A stretch of DNA of 64,000 nucleotides from Escherichia coli (GTDB lineage Bacteria; Pseudomonadota; Gammaproteobacteria; Enterobacterales; Enterobacteriaceae). Made by a program: the position numbers. Shown here piece by piece: positions 51,001 to 57,000 of the stretch. The DNA is taken from the NCBI RefSeq assembly GCF_050320075.1, contig NZ_CP190018.1; one strand, 5' to 3'. Positions within the stretch are counted from its first letter, which is position 1. Each line of letters starts with the position of its first letter.

Positions 51001-54000
51001 GGTGCGTGTCTCCAGCCAGTAAAAGGTGATGGCGCGCCGGTCACTGTCGTAACGGTACGAGATACCGAGCCGGGAGGCGACGGTATCCAGCAGCTGCCGC
51101 AGCCCGGTGGCGCTGAGTTCCGGCAGGACGGCACCGCCGCCCGGGGGGATGACCTGTGCGCCACTGCCGACGGCGGCCAGCGGCACCATGCCGTTCGGGT
51201 CCGGTGCGGGGATTGCGCCTGTCAGCTGCTGTGTGGGGCCGGTGGTGGCCAGCGCCTGCCAGACGTCGGCGGTGATGGTCACGGGGATACCGCAGCTTCC
51301 GGTGATGCGCTGGGCTATCTGCCGCAGGCTGATATCCCGGCGGGTGTTGATGATGATGGGGCAGCCCGGCAGGCTCTGGTGTGCGGGGCTGACGCTGACA
51401 GGGGAGGGGTTGATCCACTGTCGCGTGGTCTCCGTGACCACCGGCCGGGATTTACGGAGTTCGCCCGCGTGCCGGCGCGCTTTCTCCAATGTGGCGGTGG
51501 CGTCTTTTTCCGTGTTGCTGATACGTTCGGCCGTACCGCAGCCTGACAGCAGCAGGGCGACGGCAGTCAGTGGCAGGAGCATGTGTTGTCTTTTTTTCAT
51601 GCAGAAATCCTTGTGTGAAACGTGAAAACAGTGAGCAGAGCAGGGAGGGCAGAAGCGCTTCGGGACTGAAGTCTGCGCGTGATGGCGATATATCCGCGGG
51701 ACATGACCGCGGCCGGATATGCAGACTTCAGTCCACAGGCTCCTCACACTGTGCGGGACAGCGAAGGTTAACGGTGCAGTGATGTCCCGCTAGTTGAAAT
51801 AAACAAATGCGCTGTCAGGAATGACGGACGGCACGCTGATACCGGTGTCCTGACCTGTGGTGTTCAGCAGTCGCCGCCCCTTCACCCGGCCTGCCAGCGC
51901 GGTTTTGTGGGTGATGTCTGCCAGCGCACCTGCAAGCCCCGGGCGGTCATCCTGCCAGACAAAGACCCGCTGTCCGGCGATGATATGGCGGGTACCGTAT
52001 ACCGGGCGGAAACCCGTGGCGGTGACGGGGAGCGTGCCACCCCCCGTGCGCTCAGCCGGATGGGTGTACAGCCGGTCGTTAATGCCGTTCATGAGGCGGA
52101 CCATCTCCCACGCACGTTCACGCATCTCCGCCTGCTCGCTGTACACGGTGACCCGGTGGGTACTGCTGTTGTGAAACCAGGTCAGCGCCACGGTCAGGGC
52201 CATGACCAGGGAGAGCGACCAGCCCATGGTCAGTCTCCCGGTCTGTCGCTGACGTGCACCACACACTGCGTGCTGTTGATGGCTGCATACAGCGGCGTCT
52301 GTGCGTCCTGATAGAGACGGAAGAGTTCACTGAGCGCGTGGCGGAACTCGCCGGTGAAATGCAGCGGCGCATCGATGCTGTAATTGAGTCCGGGGTTCTG
52401 CCAGGCCAGCTGCCAGGTGCCACCGGCCTGACAGGGAACGGCGGCCACCCACTGCTCAAGACCGGCACGCAGCAGGGTTCCGCGGGCAAGAGTCCAGGTG
52501 GTCCGTGCATGCGCCGGTTGCGGCATGTTTGCTGATTTTTCCGCGGTTTTTTCCTGCAGACTGGTGGTGCCCGGGGTGGCCTGAGACGGACTGAACAGGG
52601 TGTTCCGCTCAATACGTACATGCTTCTTCTCCGTGTCGGTGATGGCGCGGAGCTGATATTTTTTCAGCATGCGTTCCGTAACGTAATTCCACTGGTCATT
52701 TCCCTTCCATGACACCGTGCGGGGCGGCCTGACATCCGGTGCAATGTCAAATGTCCATCCCGGCGGTATCAGTTGCTGCATGGCTTTTTTCAGTGATAAC
52801 CCTTTACCGTCCCGGGGAATAAATTTCAGTGCTCCCGGAGCGCTGCTGACCGTGGACGATGAGGGTGCACTGACCTGAGAAGGTGACGGTGCAGCAAAAA
52901 GTGGAACAGAAAATGCCAGCAGCGGCACAATAAGAAGTGGTTTCAGTGGTGTCATATTATGGTCCTGTATCGCACATTTTTTGTGTTTCCTGAGCCTGTA
53001 TCCGGTTTTATTCCGGCTGAACTCTGCTGCATGAGAATGCGGTGACGTTCACTTTCACACTGAACGATTTACCGGCCTCTTTTTCTTTTGAAAACAGCCT
53101 GACGCATTCAGGCTCAGTCATCAGTCATCGGTGTGTTCTGAAAACGCACCCAGGATACCGGTGCACCACCAGGCTTCAGGATGGTGGCTTCAATCCGGTA
53201 TTTATGCGGTGTGGTGTCTGTTGTTGCTGTCATTCATGGCTCCTGTTGCCGGTTTCCGGTCCCGGAAAAATAGGCGACATCAGCAACAAGGGGAAAAACG
53301 CGATGTCGCCTGAAAGGTACTGGTGCAGCGGTGCGTTGTACGGACGCAGGTCCGCACAACCGGAAATACACGGGATGATTCGGTCAGTGTATTTTCGTGT
53401 TGTGCGCCTGTACTGATACGGCAGGGTGTGATGAGTGTTACCTGTGGCTGCAGGCGCGGCACGTCACTCATAACGTAGCATTCTGTTTCCTCCTCAGCCC
53501 GGCTTCAGGGCGTTGCCGCAATACCCGATTGTTAAAGAGCCTTACCGGCATGGTGTCCGGTGTCACCGCGCGGATAACGATACGGCGGTGTCTGAAGGGA
53601 TGATGCTGCGGCGCTCTGCACATGGCGACGATTAATTCTTTTTGTGTTTCTGAAAATTTATTGCCGGGAAATTTCTGGTGTGACAGGGTGAATTAATTCT
53701 GGTCAGCGACGCTCCTGAGAAGGCAGAGTGCGCTGACATTTCGTGAACGGAGGAATGCCATGTCCCTGAATCCCACCGATGAACAGTCAGCCATCATTCA
53801 CTGGCAGGGGGAAAAACTGGTGGTGAATGCCTTTGCCGGTACAGGCAAAACCAGCACACTGGTGCAGTTCGCCGCAGCCTGCCCTGAGAGCCGGATGCTG
53901 TATCTGGCCTATAACCGCGCGATTCGTGATGAGGCGGAGCGCCGGTTTCCCTTTAATGTGGAGTGCAAAACCTCCCATCAGCTGGCGTATTCGCGGTTCG

Positions 54001-57000
54001 GAAAGCATTTCCGGCATCGTCTGGTGCCGGGGCTGTCAGTGACGGATGTAGCGAGAAAACTGAACACCCGCTACTGGACGCTTGCCCGTGTTGCCATGAC
54101 CGCGCTGAATCAGTTCATCTGTTCGGCGGACGTGGCGCCCGGAATGCAGCATATGCCGCCTCCCGACGAGATGAAGGGCATGTCGCCACAGGATGCGCTG
54201 CGTGCCGTGCAGATCCTCTGGCATGAAATGAGCAATCCGGATGGCAATTTTCCGGTCACTCACGACACCTATCTGAAGCTCTATCAGCTTTCCTCACCGG
54301 ATCTGTCACGCAGGTGGGATACGATCCTTTTTGATGAGGCCCAGGATGCGAATCCGGTGACGTCCGCACTGGTGCTGGGGCAGCGGTGCAGGGTGGTACT
54401 GGTTGGCGACCGTTACCAGCAGATTTATCGTTTTCGTGGTGCCAGCGATGCACTGTCGCATCCGGCACTGAACGGGGCGGACCGTCTCTGGCTGACGCAA
54501 AGTTTTCGTTTTGGTCCTGCCGTGGCCGGGGTGGCCAGCCAGTTACTGAAGCGTGCCGGCGAGAGCCGTGAGGTGACCGGCAGGGGCGGGGATGATGAAG
54601 TGCTGACGGCAGGTGAAATGCGTGCGCGCGTGAAGGCAGGGAAGATGACCGGTCACAGGGCGATACTGAGCCGGACGGTGGCCGGTGTGATTGGCACCGC
54701 ACTGATGGCGGCAATGCGTGGCAGGAAGGTTTACTGGGTGGGGGGCATTGAAGGCTACAGAACGGAGGCACTGGAAGATCTTTACTGGTTTCAGATGGAT
54801 ATGCCGGAGCGGATGCACAGTGACAGACTGCGGAAGGACTACCGGGGTTTTGACGAGTACCGTCATATTGCGAAGGTGACGAAGGATGTGGAAATGAATC
54901 AGTCCATTCGTCTGCTGGAGCTGTGCTTTCCGCTGCCGAAGAAACTCGAACTTCTCAGAAAGCACACCGTCACGAATGAACAGGAGGCGGATATCACGGT
55001 CTCAACGGCACACCGCAGTAAGGGACTGGAGTGGTCACTGGTGGTACTCGATGATGATTTTCAGGATATCACCGACCCGCTGATAAGCGAGCAGGAGCGG
55101 CGGGATGAAACCAATCTGCTCTATGTGGCGGTCACCCGGGCGCGCAGAACGCTGGTTCTCAATGAACTCATGCAGCAGCTGACGGAAGCTGCCGGCGATG
55201 GTGGTGCACCCGGAAACGCGCCGGTGCAGGGGAAGGAAGACGATGGCGTGGAGGGAGAGGATGTTTAAGCGGTTCAGACGTATGCTGCCCGGCACAAAGG
55301 GCACGGAGCCTGGCGTGGTCGCGCCGGTGATACCGGCAGGGTTTTATGCGCCGCTCACGGCAGAGGCACTGTTATCACCAGAGCACAGGGAGCTGAGGCT
55401 CAGGCAGGTCTGGGATAACAATCCGATGCCCCGTGATGTATACGACAGGATGTGCCTTGAACCACTCAGCCGGCTGCTGCTGAACACCCAGAACGTCCCG
55501 GCAACACGGGAAGGACGGTGGTCCCGTGCCGGTGGATTTGGTGATCTGACGGTACTGTACACCACGTATGCCGTTCGTCTGGCAAGAGGGTACATGTTTC
55601 CACCGGATGCGACCCCGGAAGACCAGGCGGCTCAGGCCGCAGTCTGGCATGCGGTGATTTTCTGGTCAGCGCTGTTTTACCACCTGCCCCTGCTGGCGCA
55701 CCTTGAGGGGGAACTGCTGAGTGGGCGGGGCTGGCAGCCAGGGATTTCTGTGCCTGACGAACCTTTCCGTTTCCGGTTCAGGAAGACGGCGCCGCAGGGT
55801 ACGGAAGCGCAACAACTTGCGGCCCTGACTGCCGGCACGCTGTTACCGGACGGCGCAACGGCCTGGCTTGTGACGGCGCCGGGCGCACTGCAGAATCTGG
55901 CCGGGGCGCTCTGGCATCAGCATCCCGGGATGGCGCTGATTCGTGATGTGCTGCAGGAAGCGGCAAGGCAGACAGAGAGTCCGCTAAATACCTGCGCTGT
56001 CACTGCGCCGGTTACTGCGGAGGCTTCAGCAGACATCCGTCCTGCTGACCCGGTGGTGACCGGCAGCACGGACAGTGTGGTGGCAGTCACTGAGGTGCAG
56101 CCGGCAGAGGAGGTGAAGACTGAGAGCGTGCAGACAGAGACTGAAGGTGGTGGTGAGTCCGCCGGGGCGTCAGAGGTGCCGTCCGCACAGCAGGAACTGA
56201 CGGTTCAGACAGCGCCAGTGGTGACGGCAGATGATGAAGCGGTCAGTGCTGCTCCTGCGGATCAGGACACAGCAATGCTGCTGAGTCTTTTTTCAGCAGA
56301 TGAGTCCGAAACTGCTGAACGGGATAATGGGGATGTGGTGATGCTGGCTGATGAGGAAGAAGCGCAGGATCTCACCGATGGACCGGATGAAGGCGATTCG
56401 TCTCCGGGCAGTATTCATGAATCGCCGTATCTGGTGGAGAGTGACGCGTCGGTTAATCAGTCCGTATCCGGGGAATACCGCGCAACAGAAGTGAATCCGC
56501 TTACCGGAGATGATCCTGATTTAAAGGGAGAGACGTTTTTGGACTGGCTGAAAGCAGGGCTGAACAGTGGTGAGATATCATTTAACCAGAAAGGCGACAA
56601 AATACACATTGTTGCAGGACTGGTTTTCCTGCCGGTACCAGGCATTTTCTTTGATTACCTGAAAGCAGTGCAGCTTCCCGGGGACAAACGCCCGATTGTT
56701 CAGTCATCATTTGAGCGGCTCTGTATCAATAAACGCCGTGATGACCAGCGTTTTTATTTTGCTCGTATTGCTGAGGAACCCGGGAACTGTGCACGTTACA
56801 AAACAGTCAAAGGTTACCTGGTCAAAGGACGTAGTCTGATGCATGAAAGTAAACTGAAAGACAGTCCTTATCTTTTTATTTCGTGAGTGGAGGGGAGGCT
56901 ATTATTGCAGGAATGTGAATGAAATGTAAAAGGTAATCAATGAAAATAAATAATGCGGATAAGTGCTGGAATGATTTGATGGATGAGTTTTTTTTCTGCC

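What the first reader, a model, noticed from the sequence alone, without database searches (positions are those of the whole stretch)
53760..56886. UvrD-like helicase coupled to a protein with a long acidic linker beside the integrase
The two genes overlap at stop and start and lie between the pil operon and int. No MobH or MobF relaxase was recognised elsewhere in the window, so these may form the DNA-processing module, although the relaxase could lie left of the window.
Basis: inference. Interest (0 to 1): 0.4.

Follow-up and report, generated by a model that had tools for sequence, protein, structure and literature searches.

The report
ICE helicase–TraI DNA-processing gene pair
These two overlapping genes are the helicase and the TraI "relaxase-family" protein of a complete SPI-7-type conjugative island in E. 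coli, a known kind of module, but this TraI lacks every catalytic residue known for its family, so what cuts the DNA for transfer remains open.

Summary
Window 53760-55268 encodes an intact UvrD-family SF1 helicase. Window 55261-56886 encodes a 541-aa protein with a 180-residue acidic linker (net charge -37). The two genes overlap by 8 nt (ATGTTTAA) and lie between a type IVb pil operon and a XerC/D-like integrase next to tRNA-Phe (pheV).

The second protein is itself the MobH-family protein: TraI_2 plus TraI_2_C domains, and TIGR03760 "ICE relaxase, PFGI-1 class" above its cutoff. The rest of the ~80-kb SPI-7-family ICE has no other annotated relaxase.

The helicase-traI-int order recurs in 27 Enterobacterales loci, usually with the stop/start overlap. 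There the helicase is 59-67% identical, against 31-42% for TraI.

The catch is that this TraI belongs to the motif-less "MOBH3" type. The HHH motif, the HD motif, Y212/H215 and D267 of the characterised gonococcal TraI are all replaced. No Tyr or His is invariant in the N-domain of 57 homologues, although the fold is kept. This is already described in the literature.

Canonical HHH/HD TraI loci have no adjacent helicase. Two conserved hairpins upstream are unproven oriT candidates.

Verdict: an ordinary, known module type, with a real open question about the nickase.

The parts
53760..55268 (+). UvrD-family (SF1A), FBH1-like DNA helicase gene, 502 aa
   Evidence: Pfam UvrD-helicase, UvrD_C, UvrD_C_2 and AAA_19 hits are above cutoff. 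All helicase motifs are present: GTGKT at 27, DEAQD at 192, GDRYQ at 216, TAHRSKGLE at 416, VAVTRA at 456. The best solved structure is human FBH1 at E 9e-57, against about 1e-5 for UvrD, Rep and PcrA. PGAP names it 'UvrD-helicase domain-containing protein'.
55261..56886 (+). TraI (MobH-family, motif-less MOBH3 type), 541 aa
   Evidence: TraI_2 plus TraI_2_C. TIGR03760 is above cutoff; the NF041494 MobH equivalog scores 74 bits against cutoff 200. PGAP names it 'TraI domain-containing protein' with its start at 55261.
55261..55268 (+). 8-nt stop/start overlap ATGTTTAA (translational coupling)
   Evidence: Raw sequence. Equivalent ATGnTGA, ATGTTAA or ATGTTTAA overlaps occur in about 17 of 27 related loci.
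55321..55995 (+). TraI N-terminal TraI_2 domain (residues 21-245), HD-like fold without the metal and catalytic residues
   Evidence: pLDDT is above 93. Foldseek matches 3KQ5 (probability 1.0), then weakly the HD-domain proteins YhaM, PDEs and PgpH. Motif replacements: SESHHH to TREGRW (residues 82-87), H to L96, HD to Y140-H141, D to A235, and the Y..H motif is absent.
55999..56502 (+). Disordered acidic linker (residues 247-414)
   Evidence: pLDDT is below 50. Net charge is -37 over residues 241-420. The linker is acidic in all 16 homologues measured, net -18 to -37.
56266..56295 (+). Short conserved hydrophobic motif DTAMLLSLFS inside the linker (residues 336-345)
   Evidence: D336, T337, L340 and F344 are invariant or nearly so in alignment A2. 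It is the only helix predicted in the linker, at residues 336-341. An LLS(L/M)F motif is found in 9 of 16 homologue linkers.
56518..56883 (+). TraI_2_C domain (residues 420-541)
   Evidence: PF07515. phmmer E 2.2e-16 to PDB 2IPQ, the S. Typhi SPI-7 protein STY4665. Foldseek TM 0.92, rmsd 1.7 A.
56940..57929 (+). XerC/D-like tyrosine integrase, third gene of the conserved hel-traI-int set
   Evidence: Phage_integrase Pfam hit. Weak XerA/XerD/XerC NCBIfam similarity. It lies downstream of TraI in most related loci.
58125..58201 (-). tRNA-Phe (pheV) and right-hand att repeat (58125-58175)
   Evidence: ARAGORN. A 51-nt, 92%-identical direct repeat lies at the far end of the ICE, next to parA, about 80 kb away.
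53272..53311 (.). Hairpin HP1 (10-12 bp stem), oriT or terminator candidate
   Evidence: Perfect 10-nt arms. DNA fold -11.7 kcal/mol, z -4.5. The arms are identical and the loop differs in the 69%-diverged NCTC9112 lineage, z -5.5. A T-run follows on the minus strand.
53347..53410 (.). Long imperfect hairpin HP2 (about 25 bp), best oriT inverted-repeat candidate
   Evidence: DNA fold -20 kcal/mol, z -5.1, 0 of 200 shuffles as stable. It is retained in NCTC9112 (-18.4 kcal/mol, z -4.1), with inner-stem changes on both arms that keep pairing.
53428..53530 (.). Non-coding block that is nearly identical between ICE lineages whose intergenic region is otherwise about 69% identical
   Evidence: Pairwise alignment shows 37 of 37 and about 33 of 35 identical runs. 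No Rfam family matches.

Best explanation
The two genes, together with the integrase that follows, form the DNA-processing end module of a complete, roughly 80-kb SPI-7-family integrative conjugative element inserted in pheV of E. coli.

Shown:
- Gene 1 is an intact UvrD-family SF1A helicase.
- Gene 2 is a MobH-family TraI with three parts: an N-terminal TraI_2 domain, a disordered acidic linker, and a C-terminal TraI_2_C domain.
- The two genes are translationally coupled.
- No other relaxase is annotated in the element.

Inferred mechanism: after excision, TraI binds the element's oriT. The oriT is probably one of the conserved hairpins in the 0.5-kb region upstream of the helicase gene. TraI delivers the DNA to the TraD coupling protein through its linker and TraI_2_C domain. 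The co-made helicase unwinds the nicked circle 3'->5' for transfer and rolling-circle replacement synthesis. It does in cis what host PcrA does for ICEBs1, and what the fused helicase domains do in F and R388 TraI/TrwC.

Open step: this TraI is of the motif-less MOBH3 type. The nick is therefore made either by TraI through unknown residues or by another enzyme.
For: Family assignments: Pfam and NCBIfam hits, with TIGR03760 at 192.9 bits against cutoff 161.4. Structures: the C-terminal domain matches 2IPQ (STY4665 of SPI-7) and the whole protein matches 3KQ5. The three-part architecture matches the one published for MOBH relaxases (PMC6736028).

Helicase: all SF1 motifs are intact.

Element context: it carries parA, dnaB-PI, parB, STY4528, topB, ssb, an MPF-G T4SS, traD and a pil operon, it has no other annotated relaxase, and it is bounded by 51-nt att repeats.

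Synteny: the helicase-traI-int order is conserved in 27 loci of Pantoea, Erwinia, Serratia, Pectobacterium, Klebsiella, Edwardsiella, Morganella and others. The helicase is 59-67% identical, against 31-42% for TraI and 47-55% for Int. A stop/start overlap is present in about 17 loci.

Mobility: a 72-kb circular Citrobacter replicon is the same element type closed at hel-traI-int-parA, which suggests excision and circularisation but is an inference from one assembly record.

Experimental support from relatives: the traI homologue Sb0117 of the SPI-7-family ICESb1 is marked in the same class as the T4SS ATPase and coupling-protein genes in a table of genes tested for conjugation (PMC3864950). 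MOBH relaxases of S. enterica and Pectobacterium ICEs are cited as essential for transfer (PMC6736028).

Precedents: a homologous 'uvrD' gene sits in the IncC (MOBH) plasmid backbone beside traFHG. A relaxase working with a separate UvrD-family helicase is documented for ICEBs1 NicK/PcrA/HelP (PMC5812530).
Against: All residues shown to be needed for cleavage or metal binding in the gonococcal MOBH TraI are replaced: the alternative-3H motif HHH, H117, H161/D162, Y212/H215 and D267. No Tyr or His is invariant in the N-domain of 57 homologues. The literature says MOBH3 proteins may 'have an alternative function'.

The NF041494 MobH equivalog model scores only 74 bits against cutoff 200. MOB-suite types the circular Citrobacter copy as non-mobilizable, meaning it recognises no relaxase there.

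The helicase is not tied to TraI in general. It is absent beside 9 canonical TraI loci and beside about 40 other motif-less loci, and in IncC plasmids it is not next to traI. Homologues also occur on MOBP/MPF_I plasmids. oriT has not been located. No experiment was done on this element.
Confidence: 0.6

Rival explanations
1. TraI is a catalytically dead pseudo-relaxase. Its HD-fold N-domain only binds oriT DNA, and its linker plus TraI_2_C domain act as an adaptor or pilot for the T4SS. The nick is made by another enzyme, such as the adjacent tyrosine recombinase, TopB or an unrecognised protein. The coupled helicase then loads at that nick.
For: All known catalytic and metal-binding residues are lost, and no Tyr or His is invariant in the N-domain. 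The fold is retained and matches the motif-less 3KQ5 structure. The literature suggests an alternative function for MOBH3 proteins. The traI-int adjacency is conserved in every class of locus examined.
Against: No alternative nickase was identified. The Mrr_cat nuclease-fold gene near traD has homologues in the maintenance regions of MOBP plasmids, so it is not a relaxase. Xenorhabdus islands keep only the N-domain plus int, which suggests the N-domain alone has a DNA-processing role. The homologue in ICESb1 is reported as needed for conjugation, which is compatible with both readings.
Confidence: 0.3
2. TraI is a genuine nickase that uses a non-canonical active site, with residues conserved in both classes such as R43, D95, E120 and R170, perhaps acting by hydrolysis. 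It would be a true relaxase of a divergent MOBH clade.
For: TIGR03760 'ICE relaxase' scores above its cutoff. D95, E120, R43, R170 and Q77 are conserved across both motif-less and canonical sequences. Gonococcal TraI itself forms no stable covalent intermediate and may act by hydrolysis. No other relaxase exists in the ICE. N-domain-only versions persist next to int in Xenorhabdus.
Against: [quoted passage not shown]
Confidence: 0.3
3. The helicase is a general accessory helicase of mobile elements, serving replication or maintenance of the excised circle, recombination control or anti-defence. It would not be a dedicated conjugative unwinding enzyme, and its position before traI would be operon convenience.
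For: Homologues occur on 1841 plasmid records, including MOBP/MPF_I plasmids, and in IncC plasmids the gene is not adjacent to traI. An IncC plasmid with an IS26-interrupted uvrD exists. The nearest solved relative, FBH1, is an anti-recombinase (for the match; the function is from general knowledge). The ICE also has its own DnaB-type replicative helicase.
Against: The stop/start overlap with traI is conserved across genera. The helicase is the most conserved gene of the three. In IncC plasmids it sits directly upstream of traF-traH-traG.
Confidence: 0.25
4. The module is a decaying remnant with no function.
For: SPI-7 of S. Typhi is regarded as immobile (general knowledge). The nearby DUF1187 gene is frameshifted in this strain.
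Against: Both ORFs are intact. The helicase shows 59-67% identity across genera. The acidic linker composition is maintained despite sequence turnover. The ICE is complete with both att repeats. A circular 72-kb copy was assembled in Citrobacter.
Confidence: 0.04

Closest known systems
STY4665 (S. Typhi SPI-7) / Sb0117 (ICESb1) / ECA0613 (Pectobacterium HAI2): the traI gene next to int in SPI-7-family ICEs
   Same: Same position, immediately before a XerC/D-like integrase at the tRNA-Phe end. Same TraI_2, linker and TraI_2_C architecture. The C-domain matches the 2IPQ structure of STY4665 (TM 0.92). The S. Typhi homologue P0114 is 45% identical and equally motif-less.
   Different: Only about 45-50% identical, a separate E. 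coli pheV lineage present in 54 of 5426 complete genomes. This copy of the ICE carries an ISApl1-mcr-1 insertion in its cargo.
TraI of the gonococcal genetic island (MOBH2 prototype; Heilers et al. 2019, PMC6736028)
   Same: Same three-part architecture and the same domain families. Anchoring residues align without gaps.
   Different: The residues needed there for cleavage or metal binding (HHH, H117, H161/D162, Y212/H215, D267) are all replaced here. Canonical-type loci have no adjacent helicase.
'uvrD' of the IncC/IncA plasmid backbone (between kfrA and traF)
   Same: 50.9% identical over 93% of the length. It sits on a MOBH-type conjugative element next to transfer genes.
   Different: It is not adjacent to or coupled with traI, and the IncC TraI is a canonical MOBH1 relaxase.
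ICEBs1 NicK relaxase with PcrA helicase and HelP
   Same: A relaxase without a helicase domain works with a separate UvrD-family 3'-5' helicase for both transfer and rolling-circle replication (PMC5812530). This is the functional model proposed here.
   Different: PcrA is host-encoded. NicK belongs to an unrelated relaxase family (the ICEBs1/Tn916 lineage, outside MOBH). No HelP-like gene was looked for here.
Human FBH1 helicase core (PDB 9xzj)
   Same: Best solved-structure match: E 9e-57 across residues 5-480.
   Different: There is no F-box or N-terminal region. The context is a bacterial mobile element.

Membership tests
MOBH relaxase family (TraI_2 / TraI_2_C) | N-terminal TraI_2 domain (PF07514) | tested here: met
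   60.4 bits against gathering cutoff 23.9, residues 51-250 of the long ORF. Foldseek matches 3KQ5 with probability 1.0.
MOBH relaxase family (TraI_2 / TraI_2_C) | C-terminal TraI_2_C (DUF1528) domain after a disordered middle part | tested here: met
   PF07515 at 60.2 bits against cutoff 27.3. 2IPQ TM 0.92. Linker pLDDT below 50.
MOBH relaxase family (TraI_2 / TraI_2_C) | Alternative 3H motif (SE.HHH), as in MOBH1 and MOBH2 | tested here: not met
   The aligned residues are T82-R-E-G-R-W87, with no His. None of 119 full-length close homologues has HHH.
MOBH relaxase family (TraI_2 / TraI_2_C) | HD phosphohydrolase motif (H...HD...D) and Y212/H215 | tested here: not met
   H117 becomes L96, H161-D162 become Y140-H141, D267 becomes A235, and Y..H is absent. 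No Tyr or His is invariant in 57 sequences.
MOBH relaxase family (TraI_2 / TraI_2_C) | NCBIfam MobH equivalog (NF041494) score | tested here: not met
   74 bits against cutoff 200.
MOBH relaxase family (TraI_2 / TraI_2_C) | Site-specific nicking of oriT | not testable with these tools
   This needs biochemistry. Only hairpin candidates were found.
MOBH3 clade (motif-less TraI_2 proteins; Garcillan-Barcia 2009 as cited in PMC6736028) | TraI_2 / TraI_2_C homology with neither the 3H nor the HD motif; includes 2IPQ and 3KQ5 | tested here: met
   The best PDB matches are exactly 2IPQ and 3KQ5. The motifs are absent.
ICE relaxase, PFGI-1 class (TIGR03760) | Score above the curated cutoff | tested here: met
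   192.9 bits against cutoff 161.4, model positions 2-213 of 218.
UvrD/Rep/PcrA-type SF1A helicases | Seven conserved helicase motifs and UvrD N- and C-terminal domains | tested here: met
   The motifs are listed. Pfam hits are above cutoff.
UvrD/Rep/PcrA-type SF1A helicases | Orthology to chromosomal UvrD, Rep, PcrA, HelD or helicase IV | tested here: not met
   All NCBIfam equivalog scores are 31-43 bits against cutoffs of 419-1168.
Gabija GajB (defence helicase) | Full-length GajB match with an adjacent GajA | tested here: not met
   Only local motif matches of 68 bits or less. The neighbours are pil genes and TraI.
SPI-7 family of ICEs | parA, dnaB-PI, parB, STY4528 and topB replication module; MPF-G T4SS; type IVb pil operon; traI-int at a tRNA-Phe att site | tested here: met
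   PGAP annotation of the identical chromosome. att repeats.

The most novel reading that the evidence does not exclude
In SPI-7-type ICEs of Enterobacterales, conjugative DNA processing runs without a classical relaxase active site. A catalytically dead HD-fold TraI acts as oriT reader and T4SS adaptor, made in fixed ratio with an FBH1-like helicase. The strand break comes from a different enzyme, for example the always-adjacent tyrosine recombinase, or from a new chemistry in the TraI N-domain.
Probability: 0.25. Interest if true: 0.7.

Novelty: new member of a known kind. Interest (0 to 1): 0.3.

Why it matters
Practical importance: this ICE carries mcr-1 (colistin resistance) in a chicken E. 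coli chromosome, so whether its transfer module works bears on spread of the gene. Typing tools such as MOB-suite do not see a relaxase in this element type (a circular copy is called 'non-mobilizable'), so its mobility is likely to be under-called.

Conceptual importance: the module is a clean, widespread example of the unresolved MOBH3 problem. A relaxase-family protein is required for conjugation in related ICEs, yet it has none of the family's catalytic residues. Here it comes with a conserved, translationally coupled helicase partner and nearby hairpins, which makes the question directly testable.

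Tried and rejected
I re-ran the scan with motif-less sequences only.

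2. blastn of the 804-nt intergenic region against the 74 loci from other genera gave nothing. Only two E. coli lineages could be compared.

3. Rfam found no family in 52900-53800. The promoter and terminator scan gave nothing beyond chance.

4. I tested whether the Mrr_cat restriction-endonuclease-fold gene upstream of traD (window 1830-2420) could be a MOBC-like substitute nickase. This was rejected. Homologues sit on 2607 plasmids, and the two I inspected place the gene beside resolvase/ParM-type maintenance genes, one of them on a MOBP/MPF_I conjugative plasmid with its own relaxase.

5. A defence-system reading (Gabija) was rejected: there are only weak local GajB matches and no GajA.

6. 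pil-operon synteny with the module is not conserved outside E. coli (one search returned no hits).

7. Seth-Smith et al. 2012, the primary SPI-7 ICE paper, is not held. I used its results only second-hand through PMC3864950, where the legend symbols of Table 2 are partly lost.

8. A literature search for 'MOBH3' returned only chemistry papers.

Full report
**Where the window comes from.** Window 53000-58300 is 100% identical to the chromosome of E. coli YZLc1-3, a chicken isolate (NZ_CP123240.1). About 30 other complete E. coli genomes carry the same block. The RefSeq annotation of that chromosome shows the finding lies at the right-hand end of an integrative conjugative element (ICE). The gene order across the element is:
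- parA, dnaB-PI ('SPI-7-type island replicative DNA helicase'), parB
- STY4528-family replication protein, topB, STY4534-family protein, ssb
- a PilL/TIGR037xx MPF-G type IV secretion system with traD
- cargo genes
- a type IVb pil operon on the minus strand
- the helicase gene, the TraI gene, a tyrosine integrase and tRNA-Phe (pheV, window 58126-58201)

A 51-nt, 92%-identical copy of the tRNA 3' end lies next to parA, about 80 kb to the left. The element is therefore complete, and the window holds its right-hand 58 kb.

**Checking the observation.** Both ORFs are present. PGAP starts the second gene at window 55261. The sequence GGAGGGAGAGG-ATG-TTT-AAG shows the TraI ATG (55261) overlapping the helicase TAA (55266-55268) by 8 nt, behind a Shine-Dalgarno-like run. 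TraI residues 241-420 contain 41 D/E and 4 K/R (net -37) and three aromatic residues. AlphaFold models residues 21-245 and 420-541 at pLDDT >92 and residues 247-414 at <50.

**What the proteins are.**
- *Helicase.* The 502-aa protein hits the UvrD-helicase, UvrD_C, UvrD_C_2 and AAA_19 models above their Pfam cutoffs. It has a complete SF1 motif set: GTGKT, TSH, DEAQD, GDRYQ, TQSFR, TAHRSKGLE and VAVTRA. It is not an orthologue of chromosomal UvrD, Rep, PcrA, HelD or helicase IV; NCBIfam scores are 31-43 bits against cutoffs of 419-1168. Its best solved relative is the helicase core of human FBH1 (E 9e-57 over residues 5-480), far ahead of UvrD, Rep and PcrA at about 1e-5. Matches to Gabija GajB are weak and local, and no GajA is present.
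- *TraI.* The 541-aa protein has TraI_2 (PF07514) and TraI_2_C (PF07515) domains. It passes the curated cutoff of TIGR03760, 'integrating conjugative element relaxase, PFGI-1 class' (192.9 against 161.4). It fails the MobH equivalog NF041494 (74 against 200). Its C-terminal domain matches PDB 2IPQ, the C-terminal domain of STY4665 from S. Typhi SPI-7 (E 2e-16; TM 0.92). The whole model matches 3KQ5 from Coxiella (probability 1.0). After that come only weak matches to HD-domain enzymes such as YhaM, phosphodiesterases and PgpH.
- *Architecture.* The arrangement of relaxase domain, disordered middle part and TraI_2_C is the published architecture of MOBH relaxases (PMC6736028).

**The complication: no catalytic motifs.** I searched 1.84 billion representative proteins with the N-domain. 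I then aligned 88 hits of at least 380 aa, and separately the TraI ORFs from 74 genomic loci.
- Canonical sequences read ASE(S/N)HHH ... GGMLDH ... LLHD(I/V)GK ... RDY.LH ... ADR.
- The query and its relatives read, with identical spacing, ATREGRW ... GGFGDL ... LFYHLP ... (no Y..H) ... AAR.
- In gonococcal TraI numbering, H106-H108, H117, H161/D162, K165, Y212/H215 and D267 are all replaced. Here these are G85-W87, L96, Y140/H141, L144 and A235.
- Across 57 motif-less homologues, no Tyr and no His is invariant in the N-domain. The invariant residues are Q77, P80, E120, W129, R170 and W202.
- None of 119 full-length close homologues, including the S. Typhi protein, has HHH or LHD.

This is a known situation. 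[quoted passage not shown] The protein is therefore a MOBH-family member of the motif-less MOBH3 type. It is not a member of the catalytically defined MOBH1 or MOBH2 groups.

**Is there another relaxase?** None is annotated in the whole ICE. Ten unnamed or oddly named ICE proteins gave no relaxase family in Pfam. One of them is an Mrr_cat nuclease-fold protein upstream of traD, which I considered as a MOBC-like substitute. Its homologues occur on 2607 plasmids. In the two I inspected, the gene lies beside resolvase/ParM-type maintenance genes, and one of them is a MOBP/MPF_I conjugative plasmid with its own relaxase. I dropped the idea. A 72-kb circular Citrobacter replicon is the same element type, closed as hel-traI-int-parA-dnaB-PI. 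MOB-suite types it 'non-mobilizable', meaning it detects no relaxase.

**Is the coupling real?** In the one-genome-per-species collection, 74 loci encode relatives of this TraI. They fall into groups:
- *Helicase present.* In 27 loci with a motif-less TraI, a helicase homologue lies upstream; in 24 it is directly adjacent, and in three Pectobacterium loci 0.9-9 kb of inserted DNA separates the genes (most TraI copies are full-length; a few helicase or TraI copies are fragmentary). The genera include Pantoea, Pluralibacter, Erwinia, Rosenbergiella, Edwardsiella, Chimaeribacter, Serratia, Klebsiella, Mixta, Brenneria, Pectobacterium, Morganella and Cedecea. Int usually follows downstream.
- *Conservation.* In these loci the helicase is 59-67% identical to the query, TraI only 31-42% and Int 47-55%.
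- *Overlap.* The helicase stop overlaps the TraI start (ATGCTGA, ATGTTAA or ATGTTTAA) in about 17 of these loci and in the diverged E. coli NCTC9112 lineage.
- *Canonical TraI.* No helicase lies within 10 kb of the 9 canonical HHH/HD loci from Pseudomonas, Halomonas, Billgrantia, Burkholderiales and Citrobacter.
- *Other motif-less loci.* No helicase lies beside about 40 other motif-less loci. Most of these are Xenorhabdus, where TraI is reduced to the N-domain (about 300-345 aa) but still precedes int.

The coupling is therefore a conserved feature of one Enterobacterales clade. It is not a universal consequence of motif loss.

Seen from the helicase side, homologues occur on 1841 plasmid records.
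- They include the IncC backbone gene known as uvrD, between kfrA and traF (50.9% identical).
- They include other MOBH plasmids.
- They also include MOBP or untyped MPF_I plasmids.

This is a mobile-element helicase family often, but not only, associated with MOBH elements.

**Linker.** Sequence conservation in the linker is low, but its acidity is kept: net -18 to -37 in all 16 homologues measured. One short motif, DTAMLLSLF (residues 336-344), is conserved in alignment A2 and is the only predicted helix in the linker. Whether it is a partner-binding motif is inference.

**oriT.**
- PGAP places a frameshifted DUF1187 gene at 53008-53233 on the minus strand.
- The remaining 525 nt contain two hairpins that fold much better than shuffled controls. 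HP1 (53272-53311) folds at -11.7 kcal/mol, z -4.5. HP2 (53347-53410) folds at -20 kcal/mol, z -5.1, with 0 of 200 shuffles as stable.
- A second E. coli ICE lineage (NCTC9112) is 69% identical in this region. It keeps both hairpins (z -5.5 and -4.1). Its loops differ, and the inner stem of HP2 has changes on both arms that preserve pairing.
- A block at 53428-53530 is almost invariant between the two lineages and matches no Rfam family.
- The gonococcal oriT needs a 32-nt inverted repeat whose structure, not sequence, matters. HP2 is therefore a reasonable candidate.
- HP1 is followed by a T-run on the minus strand, so HP1, HP2 and the conserved block could instead be a minus-strand small RNA or terminator. 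With only two comparable lineages this stays open.

**Mechanism.** I commit to the reading that the helicase and TraI genes, with int, form the ICE's DNA-processing module.
- *Shown:* the family assignments, intact helicase motifs, translational coupling, conserved synteny and the absence of any other annotated relaxase.
- *From the literature:* the traI homologue of ICESb1 is marked, with the T4SS ATPase and coupling-protein genes, among genes needed for conjugation (PMC3864950; the legend symbols are partly lost in the held text). MOBH relaxases of S. enterica and Pectobacterium ICEs are cited as essential for transfer. ICEBs1 provides the precedent of a relaxase working with a separate UvrD-family helicase.
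- *Inferred:* TraI binds a hairpin oriT and hands the DNA to TraD through its linker and TraI_2_C domain. The helicase unwinds from the nick.
- *Unresolved:* who makes the nick. It could be TraI through residues shared by both classes (R43, D95, E120, R170), or another enzyme.

**Novelty.** The module type, the SPI-7 ICE family and the motif-less MOBH3 clade are all described, and the genes are annotated in RefSeq. This is a new member of a known kind. Two points here may not be in the literature I could read. One is the clade-restricted, translationally coupled FBH1-like helicase partner, which is better conserved than TraI itself. The other is the pair of conserved upstream hairpins. Interest is modest (0.3). 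The more novel reading, conjugation with a catalytically dead relaxase homologue, is not excluded (about 0.25) and would be of real interest.

Noticed in passing
window 33354-38007: The ICE cargo carries mcr-1.1 and a PAP2 gene flanked by two ISApl1 copies, one of which has an internal stop. This is a Tn6330-like composite inserted at or over the end of a 'conjugal transfer protein TraF' gene. Colistin resistance therefore sits on a chromosomal SPI-7-type ICE in a chicken E. coli.
   Followed up: partly
window 53760-55268: The closest solved structure to the ICE helicase is the helicase core of human F-box helicase FBH1 (E 9e-57, residues 5-480). This is about 50 orders of magnitude better than bacterial UvrD, Rep or PcrA. 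The mobile-element 'UvrD' family may be the nearest bacterial relative of FBH1.
   Followed up: partly
L080 5980-7491 (IncC plasmid p39R861-4); 1841 plasmid records: The helicase family is widespread on plasmids. 1234 of the 1841 records are typed conjugative. They include the IncC backbone gene 'uvrD' directly upstream of traF-traH-traG (50.9% identical), MOBH plasmids of Pseudomonas and Citrobacter, and also MOBP/MPF_I plasmids.
   Followed up: partly
L079 (NZ_CP056253.1, 71,960-bp circular record): A Citrobacter 'plasmid' is really this type of ICE in circular form, with the order hel-traI-int-parA-dnaB-PI-parB. MOB-suite types it as non-mobilizable, meaning it finds no relaxase. Such elements are probably under-called as mobile.
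   Followed up: partly
L027-L063 (Xenorhabdus spp.), e.g. L041 9998-12112: Xenorhabdus genomes carry up to three copies each of a shortened, motif-less TraI_2 protein (about 300-345 aa, no TraI_2_C) followed by the same type of integrase, with no helicase within 10 kb. In L041 the pair sits at an island end next to SIR2-HerA defence genes and two antirestriction genes, with chromosomal dsbD beyond it.
   Followed up: partly
window 53428-53530 (with 53272-53410): A non-coding block of about 100 nt is nearly identical between two ICE lineages whose surrounding intergenic DNA is only 69% identical. With the two hairpins and a minus-strand T-run after HP1, it could be a minus-strand small RNA or a regulatory site rather than oriT. 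No Rfam family matches.
   Followed up: partly
window 53008-53233 (-): The small DUF1187 gene between the pil operon and the helicase is split into two ORFs in this strain. It is intact in close relatives such as AR_0089 and NCTC9112.
   Followed up: no
window 1830-2420 (+): An Mrr_cat restriction-endonuclease-fold gene sits in the T4SS operon three genes upstream of traD. It is conserved in the plasmid-form ICEs. Homologues also occur on 2607 plasmids; in the two inspected the gene lies beside resolvase/ParM-type maintenance genes, one on a MOBP/MPF_I conjugative plasmid. Its function is unknown.
   Followed up: partly
window 21556-21819 (+): A type B (zinc-independent) ribosomal protein L31 paralogue is encoded in the low-GC cargo region of the ICE.
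   Followed up: no
window 1-20000, 20000-46000 and 50000-56000: The composition is strongly mosaic. The T4SS genes and the pilN-to-traI end are 58-64% GC, the cargo is 35-53% GC, and the E. coli flank is about 50% GC. The ICE core clearly originates outside E. coli.
   Followed up: no
L002 25115-25840 and 19236-19814 (left of the window): The ICE encodes an AcaB-family protein (PF08900, E 8e-74) and a DUF2857 protein with weak FlhD similarity. These resemble the AcaB/AcaCD-type activators of IncC transfer genes and could control the hel-traI operon.
   Followed up: no
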